DNA from: a virus
Taxonomy: Duplodnaviria > Heunggongvirae > Uroviricota > Caudoviricetes
Strand: one strand, 5' to 3'
Virus record (IMG/VR): IMGVR_UViG_2721755724_000002
DNA length: 26,478 bases
The notes under the pieces were generated by a model. The model had not been told where the DNA came from. It did not search any database and saw only the letters and a program-made list of their open reading frames with translations. The translations under genes and the position numbers were made by a program. The first letter of the stretch is position 1. Each line of letters starts with the position of its first letter. Positions 5,241-20,001 of this stretch are shown piece by piece.

Positions 5241-5315
<75 letters not shown>

Positions 5316-5318
5316 GCA

Positions 5319-5396
<78 letters not shown>

Positions 5397-8189: not shown

Positions 8190-8490
8190 GTTAACCTCCT
8201 GCATTTGACACTCGCATGTGCTGATAAATATGTGGATGTCTCACTGGTGACTCAATAAAACTATTTGGTGTACTTAGTCTATTTTTTTTCTGTGCAACAC
8301 AACAAACCGTCACCACCAGCACTTCCTAAATGCGCTGAGTCAGACACAAGCCAACATTTTAGTCCGCTTTGAGCGAAGAGCGGACATTGATGCCCCCACA
8401 GGCTTTGAAAATATTCAATATAATCACTCCTTGAGTATAAGTTATGTAGCGGAGGAATACATCCGCTACTTTTTAATGTTATGACAGTAA

Positions 8491-11052
8491 TTAATATTTG
8501 AATCTTTTGTTTGGTATGATTTTCAGTTTTTTTGCTAAAGCCGTTAACTTTCTTAAGCGCCACTTAAGGGTGGACTCAGTTAATCCTTCCCCTGCAATAC
8601 CTTTAAAAATTTCATAACAAGGCTGACCAGCGTGTATTGCTTTCCAGAAATCCTCATAGCCGTCATCAAGTATTTGAGCTGTAAGTGCCTCATTAAGCTC
8701 TTCAATATTAGATACTGCTAAGTGCCCATCGACTAAAACACCAGCATTATTTAAATCAGATTTTGCTTTAAGCGCTTCTTTTCCAGTAGGCTCTTTACCG
8801 TTCAGTATCAAGCTGGTAACTTCAATCATTTTAGCGTGAGATGTTACAGGGAAGAAAAGCCCTTTATTTCCTGCCCTTAAGCCCGAAATTTTCTTAAGAT
8901 TTCCTAACTCAGCTGTTGCATCATTATGCGACACATCTGAGGCAATAATGCGACCTTCCCCATCAATTTCTATAATTTTTAGGGCAAGTAACCATGACTT
9001 TAAAATCGTAGAGTATAATCCCCATGTTTTCTCTGATGCCTCAATAAAAGGATAAGACTCAGAAAAATACGTGGGTATATCGCTCTCGAAAACTTTTTCT
9101 CCAGAAAGAATTTTTTTAAGTAAAGTCTCGACGAGTTGATTGTCTAAAATTTTTCGGCGTAGATAACCAGCAAGGGTTCCTTGAGAATATATATCCCTAA
9201 CATTGGTTGGAATTATCCATTCACCACTTTTAACTGCATCAAGCAAGTCTAAATTCCGCAATTCCTTAACGAGATTAAATGCGTAACCTTCCCTTACATT
9301 TAGATTTTCCGTTATTTTTGTAATTGTCAGCTTTCTCATTGTTATCAGTTTATGAAACTGGGATATAACAGAGCTTGGATACATTCTATAAATAACCAGC
9401 AGTCTAAATTCAGGAAGCTTTTGGTAGACAAGATATTCTTTGAAAACATCGTTATAAGTATCATAGGTAGAACCACTCAAGCGTACCAATCTGTAAGCTG
9501 TTAACTTATCGAGGACTTTTACAAGCATTGGGTCTTCGTCAAATTGGTATTGAAGCTCATTGAAATCTGCTGGTAGCTTAGCTGCAATCTTAACTAGATA
9601 ATCTTTTTCAATCTCATCCAAACCTTCAAGCTCTTCTTCAAAAAGGTCGTTCAGTTTTAAGCCCGCACTGATTAAATCCCTCTGAGAGTCACCTTTTCGA
9701 GTGAGTTTTAAAACATGAGCTATCGTTCTCTTTAAAAGCCAAGGAAAACCCTGCGCAAATTCAATAATATAGGGTAGTATTTCTTTACTGAGAATATTAG
9801 AGTTATTTTCATTTATTTTTTCTAAAAGAAGTATTGATTCTTTGTTTTCAAAATCCGGAAGAGTAAAGCTTTTCGATAGCTGATTAATTCTATTAAGAGA
9901 AACTTTACTGTTGTCATAGGTTGTTAGCTGATCATTTTTACGCGCAAACACTATGTATACACCACCACGAAGCTTTGTTATTGAGTTCGCAATGTATTCA
10001 TAGCAATCGAAAATGTCAGGATTCGAGAATGTAGATTCAAATTGGTCAACAAAGAAAACTGCCTTTTGGCCATTTAGTGAAAGTTGCAAGTCTTTCAGTT
10101 GTTCATCAAGTTCTATAAAATTAGTCGCAATAATGCTGCTTTGGGTAAACCTCTGAACAAGATAAAAAACATCATATATTGTTTTTACATCCCTTGAGTC
10201 ATGTAATTCAGTAATAACCCCATCCATTGAGAGCTTGTTTTCTAAAAAGGATACAAGAGAGCTTTTTCCTACTCCAGAGCGACTTTTTATCTGAAGAACA
10301 TGTGGTAGCTCATTATGTTTGATGTGAGAAAGAAGTTCACCTATGAATTCAGTCCTGCCAACGAACACAGTTGGCCCTGCAGGTAGCCTATAGTCAGCCC
10401 ATTCAGTCCCAACAGTTAATCCTCGAACTATTTCACGCTTTACTTGAGGCATTTCGTCAACTATTTTTTTCTTGCTAGGCATAATGAAATCCAAACCAGC
10501 AAGTTCTGAAATCCCTATTTTTAAATTTTCCAAAAATCTTTCATCATCAATTTGGCTGCCACTTTTATTGAATACCACAAAATTTGATGGCGTTCCTGAA
10601 TTTACCTCTTTTAAAATAAATAACTTATACAACCCCGTATCAGTCTTGAGAATGTTTGGGGCCACAAGGTCATAACCTTTAATTTCCTTATGTAGAGATG
10701 TTTCAGTCGGCAAATGCAAAGTCGCAGTTATTTGGTTATAAAGTTCCTTTCCTACCTTTGTCGTTAACCCCATATTTTCGACAGTTCGAAAATAATCTTC
10801 CGCCTCCGGTGTTAATGGTGATAATGACAGAAATAATCCATGCACCTTTTTTTCCAGAAGACCTAGCGGCAAAAGCTTTCCAACGAACGCAGCAACTGTT
10901 TGTCCACTCATGCTTTTGCTGTGTGCTTTAGCTTCGCCAATAATCTTTTGGCCAGTTGCTCTAGAGAATCCTTCAATGTCGTACTCTAAACTAGATTCTT
11001 TTTTCCTTAACTCAATGTCGTATCCAGAGCCTTCCAAGTATTCTTTTAACAA
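8491..11052 (-). CDS. Mrr-like nuclease + STAND-type P-loop NTPase protein; candidate antiphage defence effector
   Basis: 853-codon ORF, strongly AT-rich. N-terminus has a PD-(D/E)xK/Mrr-like pattern (EYDIEGF...IIGEAKAH); P-loop KSRSGVGKSSL at residues ~255-265; Walker B-like AVFFVDQFE near 336; GFPWLL (GxP-like); ~350-aa helical C-terminus. Start is TTG at 11052 without a good Shine-Dalgarno, so the 5' end is uncertain. Confidence 0.75.
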   Translation of the reverse strand: MLKEYLEGSGYDIELRKKESSLEYDIEGFSRATGQKIIGEAKAHSKSMSGQTVAAFVGKLLPLGLLEKKVHGLFLSLSPLTPEAEDYFRTVENMGLTTKVGKELYNQITATLHLPTETSLHKEIKGYDLVAPNILKTDTGLYKLFILKEVNSGTPSNFVVFNKSGSQIDDERFLENLKIGISELAGLDFIMPSKKKIVDEMPQVKREIVRGLTVGTEWADYRLPAGPTVFVGRTEFIGELLSHIKHNELPHVLQIKSRSGVGKSSLVSFLENKLSMDGVITELHDSRDVKTIYDVFYLVQRFTQSSIIATNFIELDEQLKDLQLSLNGQKAVFFVDQFESTFSNPDIFDCYEYIANSITKLRGGVYIVFARKNDQLTTYDNSKVSLNRINQLSKSFTLPDFENKESILLLEKINENNSNILSKEILPYIIEFAQGFPWLLKRTIAHVLKLTRKGDSQRDLISAGLKLNDLFEEELEGLDEIEKDYLVKIAAKLPADFNELQYQFDEDPMLVKVLDKLTAYRLVRLSGSTYDTYNDVFKEYLVYQKLPEFRLLVIYRMYPSSVISQFHKLITMRKLTITKITENLNVREGYAFNLVKELRNLDLLDAVKSGEWIIPTNVRDIYSQGTLAGYLRRKILDNQLVETLLKKILSGEKVFESDIPTYFSESYPFIEASEKTWGLYSTILKSWLLALKIIEIDGEGRIIASDVSHNDATAELGNLKKISGLRAGNKGLFFPVTSHAKMIEVTSLILNGKEPTGKEALKAKSDLNNAGVLVDGHLAVSNIEELNEALTAQILDDGYEDFWKAIHAGQPCYEIFKGIAGEGLTESTLKWRLRKLTALAKKLKIIPNKRFKY

Positions 11053-11399
11053 CTCTTCAAAAAGTAACCCCTTGTAATAACTAGTGTTTTTTTTCAGTTT
11101 GTTCAGAGTGAAAAAATAAAAACATTAAACAACTCCATGTAACTATTATTGATGAGTTATAACGCTCATTAAATTGGTCAAACCGCACTTAAAACGTGGC
11201 TTCCCCATACTAGAAAATCTACTATAAAGAGGATTACATTGCACCTTTAAATTTTAGAGATTTATAAGTGAGACTAATAATCTCGCACTGTATAATCGCA
11301 GGGTAACACATCTTTCAAGCGCCTAGGTGCTCAGATATAAGCCAGATATTAATATAGTGCTCACTATTCCTCGAAAGACCTAGAATGACCGCTTCCGGC

Positions 11400-12680
11400 T
11401 GTGAGTTCAATCAGTGGATGCAACGCTATCCTTAATCAAGGGGGACGTTGCCATGAAACGAAGAACTCGGATTAACTACACGCCAGAGCAGAAGGCAATT
11501 ATCTGGGACAGATATAAGCAAGGTGATTCTCTCCATGATATCGCCAGAATGTTCGACAGATATCATTCTTCCATTATGCCCACTATCCACCAGACAGGGA
11601 GCTACCGTCCTCCCGTGCGAAAACGGTACCGATTAGCGCTTTCGCTTGATAAAAGAGAGGAGATATCCAGAGGAGTGGTAGCAAAACTCAGTATCAGGGA
11701 CATCGCCGCCAAATTATCAAAAGCGCCTTCAACGATTAGCCGCGAGGTCAGGAGGCACGGAGGTGCCAAACAATACCGTGCAGCAAAAGCCGATACTGCT
11801 GCATGGGAAAATGCTCTGAGACCAAAACCTTGCAAGCTAATTGAAAGCCCACATTGTGTAAAATCATTGCAGAGAAGATGCATCAGGACTAGTCGCCGGA
11901 ACAGATCGCCGGCTGGCTGAAACGCTGTTATCCGGATAATCAGGAAATGCATGTGTCACACGAAACGATTTATAAAACGCTTTTTATACAAACCCGGGGT
12001 GCATTAAAAAAAGAACTGCAGCAATGCCTCAGAAGCGGAAGAGCGGTTCGTAGATCCAGAACATCATCGCTTAAAGGGAAAGGGTTAGGGTCAATCCCAG
12101 ATACGATACCAATAAGCGAAAGGCCACCTGAAGTTGCAGACAGAGCCATACCGTGTCACTGGGAAGGTGACCTGATCCAGTGCTCGAAAAACTCCTTTAT
12201 CGTCACCCTCGTAGAACGCCATTCCCGCTTTGTTATGCTGGCAAAAATCAGAGACAACAAGACCATAACGGTTATATCTGCACTCATCAGACAAGCCCGG
12301 GAATTACCTGTTGAGCTTTATAAAACACTAACATGGGACCGGGGCGCTGAAATGACCAGCCATACCCGGTTTACTGTAGCGACAGATATTCAGATTTATT
12401 TCTGTGATCATCAATCTCCATGGCAACGCGGCTCAAATGAAAATACAAACAGATTACTCAGACAGTATTTTCCAAAAGGAACTGACTTATCAGTTCACAC
12501 AGTGTTGCCAGACAGCTCAACGAGCGGCCAAGAAAAACGCTAGACTACGAATCACCCGCAGAACGGTTCAATAAGTGTCTTGCGTCCATCAGTTTAACTC
12601 ACAGCGAAAAGCAGAAGTTCAAAATTTTTCATAACGACTGATGAGAACAACTCCAATTATCAAGTTTACTGGTACCTCTG
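11400..12680 (+). mobile_element. IS30-family insertion sequence, degenerate
   Basis: Left end TGTGAGTTCAATCAGTGGATGCAACGC at ~11400 resembles the IS30 left inverted repeat; internal transposase is IS30-like. Right end placed by element length; I could not find a clean right inverted repeat. Confidence 0.65.
11453..12641 (+). pseudogene. IS30-family transposase, inactivated by two frameshifts and a nonsense codon
   Basis: IS30-like segments lie in three frames: RPKPCKL (from ATG 11453); then KPTLCKIIAEKMHQD-stop-SPEQIAGWLKR, where TAG at 11890-11892 replaces the conserved Trp codon and a frame change falls near 11845; HWEGDL...WDRG...SPWQRGSNENTN in the 11947 frame; C-terminal QLNERPRKTL...FHND after a second frame change near 12505. 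Confidence 0.75.
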
Positions 12681-12737
12681 CCAAGCGTACTTAGAGGTCT
12701 ATGTCTAAACCACCCGCCATGCAGGTGGTTGATTTAC

Positions 12738-14342
12738 CTAATTAGGCCTTGCTTGAATCGCAGACTCTATAGCTTCTCGGAATTCCGGAGCATCACTTCT
12801 TAATCGATAATCATCAAGTGTATTGAATATTTCTAGAAGTTCTTTACGATAATACGGCGATGCCAAATTACCTTCGCCTCTAGTTGTGAAAATTAATAAT
12901 GAGTCAGCGACGTCTTTTAATTTTTTATTCCTTTTCAATCTAATGTAACAAGACACAATTATACCAAGAATATCTTTCCTAGATTTCAAAGTGAGTTTTG
13001 AATTAGGCAAAACCAACTCCAACATAGCACCAAGTAATTTGGTAGCCTCTTTTGAAATATAATGAAGATCGAAATTTTCTGTTTCTTTATTTTCTTGAAG
13101 GATGTCCCTTTCATCTATCCATTCGCATTGTTCTGCCCAATTTATAGCGATGCTAAATAAATGACAGAGAAGGAAGTGAAAAGGTGTTTCCCATTCACCA
13201 CTATATTCATTCGACTGCCTATTCATATTCTTTATGATTTTCTTTGCAAAATGTGTATAGTAATGCAGCCATAAATGATCCTGAAGCCCCTGATGAATAC
13301 CTTCATGAACCATGATTTCAAACAGCGTGATCCCAGAGTAAATAGGACATTTATACTTCGAAACATCTGAATAAGAACCTAAAGATTTATTAAGTGTAGC
13401 AATAATTTTTTCATCTTCATCTAACCTCCAGTAGATATATTCACCGATGTCACGGTATATTGCTAAATCAGCCGCAAACTTAGCATTGGAAAAGAAAAAA
13501 TGTAATATACGATTGTTTTTCGGGATCAACAAACGATGCCCTCGACTAACGTTAAGATTATTTTTAAGCTCAACATATAGACGACTGTTAGGTGAATCTA
13601 GTAATGCACTGATAAAATTAGAAGTAAAGTCAGAACGAACTATTGGTTCGATCTTGATTAACTCAAGGCAGAGGGATGGGTGCGCAAGTGCAAAGTGATT
13701 GGTAAGTTCAGGTGATGAGACAATATTTAATAATGCTTCATGTGCATATTCGGCAGCAGTCTCGCGATTAGAGATGCGGAGATTGTTAGCTATCTTATCA
13801 CAAAGTCGATTCTTCACCGGACTATCAATTATTGATATCAACTTTTCTAGTTGAGGTGCCAACAATTGTGCCAGATCATCGTATCGTTTAGTAAGGTGCA
13901 AATTTTCCACTAACTCTAGAAATATTCCTGTTCTTCCAACTGAAAGTTTAGGTTTTTTTAAGCGAAATAAAATGTAAATAGCAACTGCGAGTGATATCAG
14001 GTATACGGCACTTGAACTATCTAATCCCCATTTCCAGGGGCCAAAACTAAAATATAAGTCTAGTGATTTTAAAGCTGGTGCAAACACCAAATAATTGCTT
14101 AGTAAGAATGCGAAACCAACAATTGCCCAATCCCACCACGCCAGGCAGAACCTCAAACGTAGTCGAGCGTTTGGAGTAATAAGGGCCCATACGGCAGCAA
14201 TAACGCCCAGTATGGTAAGTAGACTTGAAGTATCAATTTTGGTTGGCGGTGTCATAATTTCTCTTGTAATCATGGTTTGATGTACATCGGAATGGCTTAA
14301 CATGATAAGGCTCTTTGTATTATAAATCAGAACATTATGCAC
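12738..14342 (-). CDS. Membrane-anchored protein of unknown function with HEXXH motif; candidate defence-associated gene
   Basis: 534-codon ORF, strongly AT-rich; three predicted TM helices in the first ~125 aa, then ~400-aa helical soluble region with HEGIH (residues 346-350, plus 13293-13307). Track start is GTG 14342; alternative ATG at 14303. Confidence 0.65.
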   Translation of the reverse strand: MHNVLIYNTKSLIMLSHSDVHQTMITREIMTPPTKIDTSSLLTILGVIAAVWALITPNARLRLRFCLAWWDWAIVGFAFLLSNYLVFAPALKSLDLYFSFGPWKWGLDSSSAVYLISLAVAIYILFRLKKPKLSVGRTGIFLELVENLHLTKRYDDLAQLLAPQLEKLISIIDSPVKNRLCDKIANNLRISNRETAAEYAHEALLNIVSSPELTNHFALAHPSLCLELIKIEPIVRSDFTSNFISALLDSPNSRLYVELKNNLNVSRGHRLLIPKNNRILHFFFSNAKFAADLAIYRDIGEYIYWRLDEDEKIIATLNKSLGSYSDVSKYKCPIYSGITLFEIMVHEGIHQGLQDHLWLHYYTHFAKKIIKNMNRQSNEYSGEWETPFHFLLCHLFSIAINWAEQCEWIDERDILQENKETENFDLHYISKEATKLLGAMLELVLPNSKLTLKSRKDILGIIVSCYIRLKRNKKLKDVADSLLIFTTRGEGNLASPYYRKELLEIFNTLDDYRLRSDAPEFREAIESAIQARPN

Positions 14343-14624
14343 ACGGTTAACAATACCCTCAAAATGGCATTAATTAAATGGACACTACTTGTCCACTCAG
14401 TTTTTTTAGTCGGCTTTTTCCGACTAACGTTTGGATGTCCTATTGAAATTACGCGCCTTACATGAGCAACACTGCAACTGCATGTTTATCATAGGGATTG
14501 TGCTAATCAAATTACTGAAGCTTAAGGTCCGCCCCTGGCACAAAACAGACAACCACGCTAGCCGTATCCTGTGCCATGAAACTGTCAATTCACATATGAA
14601 TTAGTGGTCTTTAATCTCGTCACT

Positions 14625-19099: not shown

Positions 19100-19297
19100 A
19101 TGAAGCCAATTCCCCCAGCGTTAAGGGAAAATGAGGTCAACATGGATACTATCGATCTTAGCAACAACGAATCCCTGGTGTGTGGCGTGTTCCCCAACCA
19201 GGATGGAACGTTCACCGCCATGACGTATACCAAAAGCAAAACGTTTAAAACCGAAGTTGGCGCGCGTCGCTGGTTGGAGAAGTACACAGTAAGCTAA
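19100..19297 (+). CDS. ydaF: Small prophage protein (YdaF-like)
   Basis: ATG at 19100 with GGAG Shine-Dalgarno; internal ATG at 19142 (MDTIDLSNNESLVCGVFPNQDGTF..., 51 aa) also has GAGG and matches the Rac YdaF length; typical codon usage. Confidence 0.55.
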   Translation: MKPIPPALRENEVNMDTIDLSNNESLVCGVFPNQDGTFTAMTYTKSKTFKTEVGARRWLEKYTVS

Positions 19298-19749
19298 CGA
19301 TTAAAACGTCTGCTCCTACTGTTCCAGAATAACTTCATAAAGTGGGAGTATTTTTCGGTGACGAGATAATAAGAACAGTTTGCGCCATCACTCTGATGTT
19401 GAATGATGCCCTTCCGTTCTAATTTTTTCATAACCGGGTTACGGCAAGGAGAAGTGATAATAAGATTTCCTGTTTTAAGGAAATCTTTAAATACAGCGAT
19501 TTCTTTCTCAGATAAACGAAGCAATACTCGTTGCTCTGGTAGCAATGAATAATGTTTTTGAATATGTGCTCGCAATCTTGAGAAGGAAATGGCAACCACG
19601 AAAGAAAAGGCAAAAACTATAATCTGAAAGAGCCAGGTTATTTCAGTATAAGCATTAAATACGACAGCAAACTCTTTCGGTATCAGCCAGAGAGTGAGGC
19701 CAAAAATGATAATCGTGTACATAAGTCTTTCGATGTGGCTCTTTAGCAA
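19294..19749 (-). CDS. sieB: Superinfection exclusion protein B-like membrane protein
   Basis: Two N-terminal TM segments (TIIIFGLTLWLIP; WLFQIIVFAFSFVVAISF) and position between immunity region and kilR as for Rac sieB; track start is TTG 19749, first ATG at 19722, neither with a clear RBS. Confidence 0.6.
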   Translation of the reverse strand: MLKSHIERLMYTIIIFGLTLWLIPKEFAVVFNAYTEITWLFQIIVFAFSFVVAISFSRLRAHIQKHYSLLPEQRVLLRLSEKEIAVFKDFLKTGNLIITSPCRNPVMKKLERKGIIQHQSDGANCSYYLVTEKYSHFMKLFWNSRSRRFNR

Positions 19750-20001
19750 AAAGTTTCAACAATGGAGTAAATACATCCAACATTTCAATAACTCTCGACT
19801 GTAAGGGTATTGAAATGTTAACACAAGCTCTCGCTGTAGGGGTATAGCCGAGACCACCGAAGCCCGGAGGTGGTGAAATAAAACCGGGCACAACACGAAG
19901 GCGCATTTCCGATATCCATAAAGAGTCGGTCTTGTCTGTTAAATATAAATGGTGGGAGTGCGCCTCCGGTTGTGAATAACGACATTGCTGTGTGTAGTCC
20001 T

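What the first reader, a model, noticed from the sequence alone, without database searches (positions are those of the whole stretch)
8491..11052. Single large Mrr-like nuclease + STAND-type NTPase gene in an AT-rich prophage cargo block: candidate antiphage defence protein
Seen in sequence: an 853-codon ORF in visibly AT-rich DNA. It has an N-terminal PD-(D/E)xK/Mrr-like pattern (EYDIEGF...IIGEAKAH), a P-loop of the GxxGxGK[ST] kind (KSRSGVGKSSL), a Walker B-like AVFFVDQFE, a GxP-like GFPWLL and a long helical C-terminus. Established knowledge: nuclease effector + STAND NTPase + C-terminal sensor is the layout of Avs/AVAST and bacterial NACHT antiphage proteins, and lambdoid prophages carry defence cargo between replication and Q genes. 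Inference: a single-protein abortive-infection-type sensor/effector. At 853 aa it is shorter than typical Avs proteins and I cannot place it in a named family, so it may be an undescribed variant.
Basis: partly seen in the sequence, partly recalled or inferred. Interest (0 to 1): 0.85.

Follow-up and report, generated by a model that had tools for sequence, protein, structure and literature searches.

The report
Frameshifted Mrr–STAND defence nuclease gene
This is a copy, broken near its start, of an uncharacterised stand-alone bacterial gene that joins a DNA-cutting domain to an NLR-type molecular switch and an unusual DNA-reader-like tail; it is probably an anti-phage or anti-plasmid nuclease, but in this prophage it is most likely switched off.

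Summary
Pfam nSTAND1 passes its cutoff. D-x14-ExK, hhGRExE, Walker A/B, GxP and a WHD histidine are invariant across a family of about 877 aa found in at least 12 phyla.

The 853-aa length is an artefact. The true gene starts at ATG 11125, and a poly-A tract (11087-11094) is A8 here. It is A7 (in frame, 877 aa) in island copies and A6 in the other Rac-prophage copies. This copy loses 24 universally conserved N-terminal residues of the nuclease and is probably inactive.

The C-terminal 302 aa is not a TPR sensor. It is a basic tandem winged-helix module resembling the DNA-recognition domains of type IIS enzymes and BrxA.

The gene is stand-alone: no neighbour is conserved in 33 loci. It is rare (35 of 5,426 E. 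coli genomes), mobile and almost absent from phages. It matches no PADLOC model or PDB sequence, so it is not Avs1-5, Avs7, Avs8 or bNACHT.

Verdict: the Avs-like reading is partly supported. This is a new variant of a known kind, with a possibly DNA-sensing tail. It is untested experimentally, and its interest is moderate.

The parts
8491..11125 (-). Full footprint of the Mrr-nSTAND1-wHTH gene. In intact alleles this is one 877-codon ORF. Here it is split by a +1 frameshift into a 14-codon leader ORF and the 853-codon ORF.
   Evidence: Apart from the indel, only 8 codons differ from the intact EC974 allele (4 synonymous, 4 non-synonymous).
11087..11094 (-). Polymorphic poly-A tract: A8 here (+1, out of frame), A7 in frame in the island copies and Pantoea, A6 in five other Rac-context copies.
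11081..11125 (-). Original start codon ATG (11125-11123; GGAG at 11136-11133) and a 14-codon remnant that ends at TAG 11083-11081.
   Evidence: Sequence read and compared with EC974.
10720..11052 (-). Remaining part of the Mrr-type PD-(D/E)xK nuclease domain (residues 25-135 of 877). Catalytic D49 is at 10978-10980, E64 at 10933-10935 and K66 at 10927-10929. Strand 1 and the first half of helix 1 are missing.
   Evidence: Pfam Mrr_cat, invariant residues, model, N-terminus conserved in all phyla.
10450..10719 (-). Small three-stranded beta plus helix linker domain (residues 136-225). It is variable and its function is unknown.
   Evidence: AF2 model. Identity among distant homologues is 30%.
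9685..10449 (-). STAND (nSTAND1) NTPase core with helical domain (residues 226-480). It holds FVGRTEF (hhGRExE), Walker A at 10258-10275, Walker B at 10036-10047, GFPWLL and H470.
9400..9684 (-). Acidic segment (median pI 4.6) in the WHD/linker position (residues 481-575). It is the most conserved part of the protein but is modelled with low confidence.
8494..9399 (-). C-terminal 302-aa basic tandem HTH/winged-helix module, the putative sensor. Its last ~100 aa correspond to Pfam AAA_assoc_C in distant relatives.
8361..14541 (.). A 6.2-kb AT-rich mobile block inserted between hokD and the DUF977 gene. It carries this gene, an IS30 pseudogene and a 505-aa gene, and is 98.7% identical to a block in a non-prophage island of strain EC974.
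   Evidence: In 70 other genomes the hokD-DUF977 interval is only about 1 kb.
11453..12641 (+). IS30-family transposase pseudogene (frameshifted, with an internal stop) directly upstream of the gene.
   Evidence: RefSeq annotation of the identical strain H2 sequence; ORFs.
12738..14255 (-). 505-aa hypothetical membrane protein gene that travels with the E. coli block. It is not a conserved partner.

Best explanation
The window holds a 5'-frameshifted, probably inactive copy of a stand-alone gene for an uncharacterised 877-aa protein family. The protein has an N-terminal Mrr-type PD-(D/E)xK nuclease, a small beta linker, an nSTAND1-clade STAND NTPase, and a C-terminal basic triad of HTH/winged-helix domains. 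Shown here: the domain identities, the invariant catalytic and NTP-binding residues, the single-gene organisation, the patchy mobile distribution, and the frameshift. Inferred: the intact protein is an NLR-like defence nuclease kept off in an ADP-bound monomeric state. Binding of an invader-derived ligand to the winged-helix module would allow nucleotide exchange and ATP-dependent oligomerisation. That would bring the Mrr domains together into an active DNase that destroys invader and/or host DNA. Because the sensor resembles sequence- or structure-reading DNA-binding modules (type IIS recognition domains, BrxA) and is basic, I favour nucleic acid as the ligand, probably foreign or modified DNA, over a phage protein. 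In this window the A8 tract ends the reading frame after 14 codons. Any product restarted at TTG 11052 lacks a universally conserved strand and half a helix of the nuclease, so little or no activity is expected. Rare transcriptional or replicative slippage back to A7 could restore the frame.
Confidence: 0.6

Rival explanations
1. Classical Avs-type pattern-recognition receptor. The winged-helix module binds a conserved phage protein, not DNA. This drives tetramerisation and indiscriminate DNA degradation (abortive infection).
For: The layout is the same effector-NTPase-sensor order, and the top Foldseek hit is Avs4. All characterised Avs families sense phage proteins (PMC13581612). The sensor is the most variable region.
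Against: The sensor is 302 aa of wHTH units, not a TPR-like domain of 400 aa or more. Its best long structural matches are DNA-recognition modules, and it is basic. There is no sequence relation to any solved or PADLOC-modelled Avs.
Confidence: 0.3
2. The 853-aa product from TTG 11052 is made and is a functional defence protein in this prophage, so the shorter N-terminus is tolerated.
For: RefSeq annotates it as an intact CDS, WP_073511864.1. The catalytic D-ExK triad is retained. The rest of the ORF has no further lesions, and the exact sequence is seen on 108 contigs.
Against: The strong start (GGAG-N7-ATG) feeds a 14-codon dead-end ORF, and TTG 11052 has no well-spaced Shine-Dalgarno sequence. 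The lost residues (MFLF..., K18, G19, F22, E23) are at least 90% conserved across all phyla. Mrr_cat falls below its Pfam cutoff. Sister copies are out of frame in the other direction, which looks like decay.
Confidence: 0.12
3. Phase-variable contingency gene. The poly-A tract is an ON/OFF switch that lets a costly nuclease be expressed in only a fraction of cells.
For: Three tract lengths (A6, A7, A8) occur among copies at least 98.7% identical, and two different OFF states occur within one prophage lineage. The OFF ORF otherwise remains intact.
Against: The tract is short for efficient slippage. It is absent from most homologues, being only a by-product of E-K-N codons in AT-rich DNA. Five of six Rac-context copies share A6, which fits one inherited mutation. 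The single A8 could be an assembly error.
Confidence: 0.15
4. Not an immune protein. It could be a STAND-regulated DNA-binding factor or a nuclease serving the mobile element itself, for example in addiction, element competition, or a MalT/Orc-like regulatory or replication role.
For: The STAND/ORC-like ATPase plus wHTH layout is shared with MalT, Cdc6/Orc1 and DnaA. Many loci have no defence neighbours. The gene is always on mobile or variable DNA.
Against: The invariant Mrr catalytic triad argues for DNA cleavage. No cognate element or partner is conserved. The phyletic spread is patchy and inactivation is recurrent, which is typical of defence genes.
Confidence: 0.1

Closest known systems
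Avs4 (AVAST type 4; EcAvs4, PDB 8dgf)
   Same: N-terminal Mrr-type nuclease followed by a STAND NTPase in a single polypeptide that acts alone. It is the best Foldseek match to the full model.
   Different: There is no detectable sequence similarity, either by profile against PDB at E<=1 or to the PADLOC AVAST models. Avs4 is about 1,540 aa with a large TPR-like portal-binding sensor. This protein is 877 aa with a 302-aa winged-helix module.
Avs8 / PD-lambda-4A
   Same: Mrr nuclease plus P-loop NTPase found in Enterobacteria. Its dsDNA cleavage is activated by ligand plus ATP (PMC12236752).
   Different: Avs8 is a two-gene operon (A and B) and senses HK97-fold capsid proteins. This family has no conserved partner and no PADLOC hit at E<=1.
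nSTAND1 clade of STAND NTPases (Pfam PF20703; Aravind group conflict systems)
   Same: The NTPase scores above the Pfam cutoff, and RefSeq already names some copies 'nSTAND1 domain-containing NTPase'.
   Different: nSTAND1 was described in multi-component or effector-associated-domain systems of multicellular bacteria (PMC8195603). This Mrr plus wHTH-triad single-gene architecture is not described in the papers I could search.
BrxA and BrxC (BREX); DNA-recognition domains of type IIS enzymes (FokI, N.BspD6I, BpuJI)
   Different: The match is fold-level only, at 6-9% identity. There is no methyltransferase or other BREX/R-M partner, and the nuclease is of the Mrr type.
E. coli Mrr and other type IV restriction enzymes
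   Same: An Mrr catalytic domain combined with winged-helix DNA-binding domains, with no cognate methylase.
   Different: Mrr has an N-terminal wH domain (Mrr_N) and no NTPase. Here a STAND switch sits between the nuclease and the C-terminal wH array, and there is no Mrr_N hit.

Membership tests
STAND NTPase superfamily (nSTAND1 clade) | Profile match above the curated cutoff | tested here: met
   PF20703 scores 33.1 and 33.0 bits against a cutoff of 27.1.
STAND NTPase superfamily (nSTAND1 clade) | hhGRExE motif, Walker A, Walker B, GxP motif and a conserved WHD histidine. The list of hallmarks is recalled from Leipe et al. 2004. | tested here: met
   FVG256R257TEF, G284VGKSS289, D360QFE363, G459FPW462 and H470 are all invariant in 41 sequences.
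STAND NTPase superfamily (nSTAND1 clade) | Structural distinction from ORC/Cdc6-type AAA+ ATPases | tested here: inconclusive
Mrr-type PD-(D/E)xK nuclease (Pfam Mrr_cat) | Profile match above the cutoff | tested here: inconclusive
   The intact 877-aa allele scores 28.2 bits against 21 and passes. The window's 853-aa ORF scores 20.1 bits and fails.
Mrr-type PD-(D/E)xK nuclease (Pfam Mrr_cat) | Catalytic D...(D/E)xK residues present | tested here: met
   D49, E64 and K66 are invariant and are retained in the window ORF.
Mrr-type PD-(D/E)xK nuclease (Pfam Mrr_cat) | Complete core fold encoded in this window | tested here: not met
   The frameshift removes strand 2-5 and residues 14-24 of helix 1, including K18, G19, F22 and E23, which are at least 90% conserved.
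Avs1-5 / AVAST, Avs7 (named antiviral STAND families) | Sequence membership by family HMMs or similarity to solved members | tested here: not met
   No PADLOC-DB v2 hit at E<=1. A profile against all PDB sequences gives no hit at E<=1.
Avs1-5 / AVAST, Avs7 (named antiviral STAND families) | Large repeat-type (TPR-like) C-terminal sensor that binds a phage protein | tested here: not met
   The sensor is a 302-aa wHTH array. Ligand binding is not testable here.
Avs8 / PD-lambda-4 | PD-lambda-4 HMM match and a conserved two-gene A/B operon | tested here: not met
   No PADLOC hit for this gene or for the 505-aa neighbour. No conserved neighbour in 33 loci.
Avs10-24 and the other sensor clusters of Lee et al. 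2026 | Assignment to one of their 589 clades or 684 sensor clusters | not testable with these tools
   The supplementary tables are not held. Their sensor clustering excluded C-terminal regions under 400 aa, which probably excludes this family.
bNACHT | NACHT-clade NTPase | tested here: not met
   No NACHT hit at E<=1 for this protein. One distant relative gives only a sub-threshold hit.
Anti-phage defence system (functional class) | Enrichment next to known defence genes | tested here: inconclusive
   Some loci lie in R-M or defence islands or on MGEs, while others lie among housekeeping genes. No statistical test was done.
Anti-phage defence system (functional class) | Protection against phage on expression | not testable with these tools
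   No experimental report was found.
Phase-variable contingency locus | Repeat-tract length polymorphism among near-identical strains | tested here: met
   A6 (five copies), A7 (four copies) and A8 (one sequence: the window, identical to strain H2).
Phase-variable contingency locus | Tract conserved as a feature of the family; measurable switching | tested here: not met
   A run of at least 7 A occurs only in E. coli, Pantoea and one Eubacteriales MAG. The switching rate is not testable.

The most novel reading that the evidence does not exclude
The intact family is a STAND-gated restriction nuclease that senses nucleic acid directly. A BrxA/type IIS-like winged-helix triad would read foreign DNA (modified, or of a particular structure or sequence) and license ATP-dependent oligomerisation of an Mrr nuclease. 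That would make it an NLR-type receptor whose 'pattern' is DNA rather than a phage protein, with a hypermutable poly-A tract in the enterobacterial lineage acting as an ON/OFF switch for a costly gene.
Probability: 0.25. Interest if true: 0.7.

Novelty: new variant of a known kind. Interest (0 to 1): 0.4.

Why it matters
Characterised bacterial STAND/NLR-like defence proteins (Avs1-24, bNACHT) are described as sensors of phage proteins with large repeat-type sensors. The recent systematic survey left out proteins with C-terminal regions under 400 aa, which is about 80% of its defence-associated STANDs. This family is a compact, widely spread example from that unexplored part. Its sensor looks like a DNA-reading module, so it could link NLR-type switching with restriction-type DNA recognition. 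It is directly testable because intact alleles exist in complete E. coli genomes such as EC974. For this window the practical message is annotation. The '853-aa restriction endonuclease' CDS is a frameshifted remnant of an 877-aa gene, so it should not be counted as an active defence system.

Tried and rejected
1. PADLOC-DB and NCBIfam scans of this protein and of the 505-aa neighbour found nothing.

2. Profile searches of the full length and of the C-terminal module against all PDB sequences found nothing significant.

3. I tested whether the 505-aa upstream gene is a partner, like Avs8B. I rejected this because it is absent next to homologues in Pantoea, Vibrio, Pseudomonas and 28 other species. 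It has its own wide proteobacterial distribution.

4. I tested whether the gene is generic phage cargo and rejected it. megablast and tblastn against 50,697 phage genomes found nothing. There was one hit in IMG/VR, and it is this same prophage.

5. I tried to match the family to Lee et al. 2026 or other papers by accession. There were no hits, and the supplements are not held.

6. Literature searches for nSTAND1, Mrr-STAND and wHTH-STAND descriptions found no paper on this architecture.

7. The sigma-70 promoter scan gave fewer sites than shuffled controls and no convincing minus-strand promoter upstream of the gene, so it was uninformative.

8. The Foldseek afdb50 search of the C-terminal model was unavailable.

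9. I considered whether the A-tract is a conserved regulatory feature. It is not conserved outside the enterobacterial lineage.
Full report
OBSERVATION. It lies in DNA of GC 0.34-0.39, with flanks at about 0.47-0.51. The quoted motifs are in the translation. Pfam places nSTAND1 (PF20703) at residues 228-403 with 33.1 bits against a cutoff of 27.1. Mrr_cat (PF04471) covers residues 2-97 with 20.1 bits, just under its cutoff of 21. PADLOC-DB v2 and NCBIfam give nothing at E<=1.

WHERE IT IS. The window is 100% identical to the Rac-like cryptic prophage next to trkG in E. coli strain H2. The gene lies between hokD and an IS30 pseudogene, in the stretch between the replication genes (ydaU/ydaV, DUF1627, DUF977) and the hokD/DUF1367/DUF1364/DUF1133 late-regulatory region. 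RefSeq calls it 'restriction endonuclease' or 'nSTAND1 domain-containing NTPase'. Only 35 of 5,426 complete E. coli genomes carry at least 80% of the query. Seven of these have this prophage context. The rest have an unrelated chromosomal island bordered by IS481, as in strain EC974. The two contexts share a 6.2-kb block, window 8361-14541, at 98.7% identity. The block holds this gene, the IS30 pseudogene and a 505-aa hypothetical gene. In 70 other genomes the hokD and DUF977 flanks are only about 1 kb apart, so the block is an insertion.

THE ORF IS A FRAMESHIFT REMNANT. In EC974 the gene is 877 codons and begins MFLFFHSEQTEKNTSYYKGLLFEELLKEYL. The window has the same ATG (11125-11123) with GGAG 7 nt upstream. 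Its poly-A run at 11087-11094 is A8 instead of A7, so the frame ends at TAG 11083-11081 after 14 codons. The annotated TTG 11052 is simply the first start codon in the downstream frame, and it has no well-placed Shine-Dalgarno sequence. Apart from this indel, the window allele differs from EC974 by 4 synonymous and 4 non-synonymous codons. The lesion is therefore recent.

With the intact 877-aa sequence, Mrr_cat passes its cutoff at 28.2 bits. The lost 24 residues are not dispensable. M1-F4, K18, G19, L21, F22 and E23 are at least 90% conserved. The motif MFLF[FY]..Q..N..YYKG.LF opens the protein in every intact homologue from every phylum examined. In the model these residues form strand 2-5 and the first half of helix 14-32 of the nuclease domain.

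The tract is polymorphic. It is A8 in the window (the strain H2 sequence). It is A6 in five other Rac-context copies (four genomes and one IMG/VR contig). It is A7 in three island-context genomes and in Pantoea. Both Rac-context states are out of frame. Other independent lesions exist: a +1 A at nucleotide 1568 in strain FCI55, and truncated or fragmented copies on Enterobacter and Salmonella plasmids. In the protein collection the exact 877-aa sequence occurs on 774 contigs and the exact 853-aa ORF on 108. I conclude that the window copy is most likely inactive. The A8 call in one assembly could itself be a homopolymer error, but the majority Rac allele (A6) is also broken.

THE FAMILY. A search of 5.8 billion proteins returned 302 relatives. 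Most are 874-890 aa and align over 100% of the query at 40-47% identity. They come from Proteobacteria, Bacillota, Balneolota, Acidobacteriota, Planctomycetota and others. A scan of species-representative genomes found 28 loci in at least 12 phyla, including Patescibacteria, Cyanobacteria, Chloroflexota and Bdellovibrionota. In a 41-sequence alignment the invariant residues (877 numbering) are:
- D49, E64 and K66, the PD-(D/E)xK triad
- G256 and R257, in FVGRTEF; from memory of Leipe et al. 2004 this is the STAND-specific hhGRExE motif
- G284-S289, Walker A
- D360 and E363, Walker B
- R395
- G459-W462, the GxP motif
- H470, the WHD histidine

Some relatives carry extra terminal domains: AP2 in proteins of about 1,080-1,110 aa, and HA in proteins of about 1,185 aa.

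STRUCTURE. AlphaFold2 with the alignment gave a mean pLDDT of 82.5. The domains are:
- an alpha/beta nuclease domain (residues 1-135)
- a small beta domain (150-205)
- the NTPase with its helical domain (about 250-480)
- a low-confidence segment (about 518-573)
- about 300 residues of helix and beta-hairpin units

A long list of single winged-helix DNA and RNA binders follows: FtsK-gamma, Z-alpha, SelB, IclR, ArsR and MarR. Several members give weak HTH_24, TrmB, IclR or MarR hits. In distant relatives the last ~100 residues match Pfam AAA_assoc_C above its cutoff. The module is basic, with median pI 9.2 and net charge +7. It is also the most variable part, at 31% identity among distant members, against 57% for the nuclease and 49% for the NTPase.

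A profile of the module finds only 261 cluster representatives in 1.84 billion proteins. Most have the same architecture. A few proteins of 430-445 aa carry the module without an NTPase, and one of 725 aa has nSTAND1 plus the module without Mrr. According to PMC12839542, BrxA-type HTH/wHTH triads are the DNA-binding elements of BREX. The same paper describes BrxC and DUF499 as STAND/ORC-like ATPases followed by wHTH arrays. This gives a precedent for the combination seen here. The module is not the TPR-like sensor typical of Avs proteins.

GENOMIC CONTEXT. Clustering all ORFs of 70 aa or more from 33 loci found no neighbour family shared by more than three loci. The gene therefore stands alone. 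The 505-aa gene upstream of it in E. coli is absent from all other loci and belongs to a separate, widespread, unannotated proteobacterial family.

Contexts include:
- a conjugative element in Pantoea
- an integrase island in Vibrio
- a solitary insertion among housekeeping genes in Pseudomonas
- an IS cluster in Sporomusa
- a site between an Mrr type IV gene and an Eco57I/XhoI R-M pair in a Nitrospirota MAG

A bulk scan of 136 flanking ORFs found several R-M methyltransferases and endonucleases, MADS components and PDC-S39. It also found integrases, transposases and ordinary housekeeping genes. This fits a mobile, stand-alone gene with some defence-island association. I did not compute an enrichment statistic. 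Phages do not carry the family. There was no hit in 50,697 phage genomes at either the DNA or protein level. There was a single hit in 2.9 million viral contigs, and it is this same prophage.

MECHANISM. Shown: the domain identities, the conserved catalytic and nucleotide-binding residues, the single-gene organisation, and the frameshift. Inferred by analogy with Avs3, Avs4, Avs7 and Avs8 (PMC13581612; PMC12236752): the intact protein rests as an autoinhibited monomer. Ligand binding to the C-terminal module permits ATP-dependent oligomerisation, and the juxtaposed Mrr domains then cut DNA. Because of the fold and charge of the sensor, I favour a nucleic-acid ligand. In that case the protein would behave as a STAND-gated, methylase-independent (type IV-like) restriction nuclease. 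A protein ligand remains quite possible. The acidic, extremely conserved, poorly modelled segment 481-575 may be a hinge or an autoinhibitory element. That is speculation.

COMPARISON AND NOVELTY. Functionally the protein resembles Avs4 and Avs8 (Mrr plus STAND). By membership tests it belongs to none of them. It has no PADLOC or PDB sequence match, no TPR sensor and no partner gene. It is a member of the Pfam nSTAND1 clade and is already labelled as such in RefSeq. I found no paper that describes this architecture. The 2026 survey of antiviral STANDs seeded its search with Mrr-containing STANDs and probably includes the clade. However, it clustered only sensors of 400 aa or more, which is 34,990 of 178,641 proteins, and its tables are not available here. 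I therefore rate the finding as a new variant of a known kind, with moderate interest.

Noticed in passing
window 12738-14255 (-) (longest ORF runs to 14342): A 505-aa hypothetical protein with predicted N-terminal membrane helices and no Pfam, PADLOC or NCBIfam hit. It belongs to a widespread gamma- and betaproteobacterial family of 505-540 aa. In Pseudomonas aeruginosa it sits in an integrase-bounded island full of unannotated genes. It may be independent cargo, possibly defence-related, and is not a partner of the STAND gene.
   Followed up: partly
window 9400-9684 (-), residues 481-575 of the 877-aa protein: An acidic segment (median pI 4.6, net charge about -7). It is the most conserved part of the family, at 71% identity among distant members, yet it has the lowest AlphaFold confidence. 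It could be a conformational hinge or an autoinhibitory element.
   Followed up: no
window 11453-12641 (+): An IS30-family transposase pseudogene (frameshifted, with an internal stop) lies between the 505-aa gene and the STAND gene. The same decayed copy is present in both genomic contexts, so the block moved after the IS decayed.
   Followed up: partly
L047 (E. coli FCI55, NZ_CM172716.1), nucleotide 1568 of the gene; L012 and hits H26-H29 (Enterobacter and Salmonella plasmids): Further independent lesions of the same gene: a +1 A that splits it into two CDSs in FCI55, and N-terminally truncated or fragmented copies on plasmids. Recurrent loss suggests the gene is costly.
   Followed up: partly
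proteins P0047, P0049, P0054 (about 1,080-1,110 aa) and P0077, P0119, P0125: Family variants carry an extra AP2 DNA-binding domain or C-terminal HA (helicase-associated) domains. A class of about 430-445-aa proteins (P0152, P0177, P0187, P0207) carries the winged-helix module without the NTPase or nuclease.
   Followed up: partly
window 8446-8469 (+): An 8-bp GC-rich hairpin followed by TTTTT, 22 nt beyond the gene's stop codon. It reads as an intrinsic terminator on the plus strand, that is, for transcription entering from the hokD side.
   Followed up: no
window about 1-1230 and about 19290-19790: By the RefSeq annotation of the identical H2 sequence, sitB is truncated at the prophage boundary, ynaK is a fragment and sieB is frameshifted. 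tRNA-Gly and tRNA-Thr genes lie inside the prophage at about 5243-5396. The prophage is a decayed Rac/Qin-like mosaic.
   Followed up: no
E. coli genomes, hokD-DUF977 interval: The flanks of the 6.2-kb block match in 4,834 of 5,426 genomes, but they are adjacent (about 1 kb apart) in only 70. This interval of lambdoid prophages is therefore highly variable and may be a cargo hotspot worth cataloguing.
   Followed up: partly
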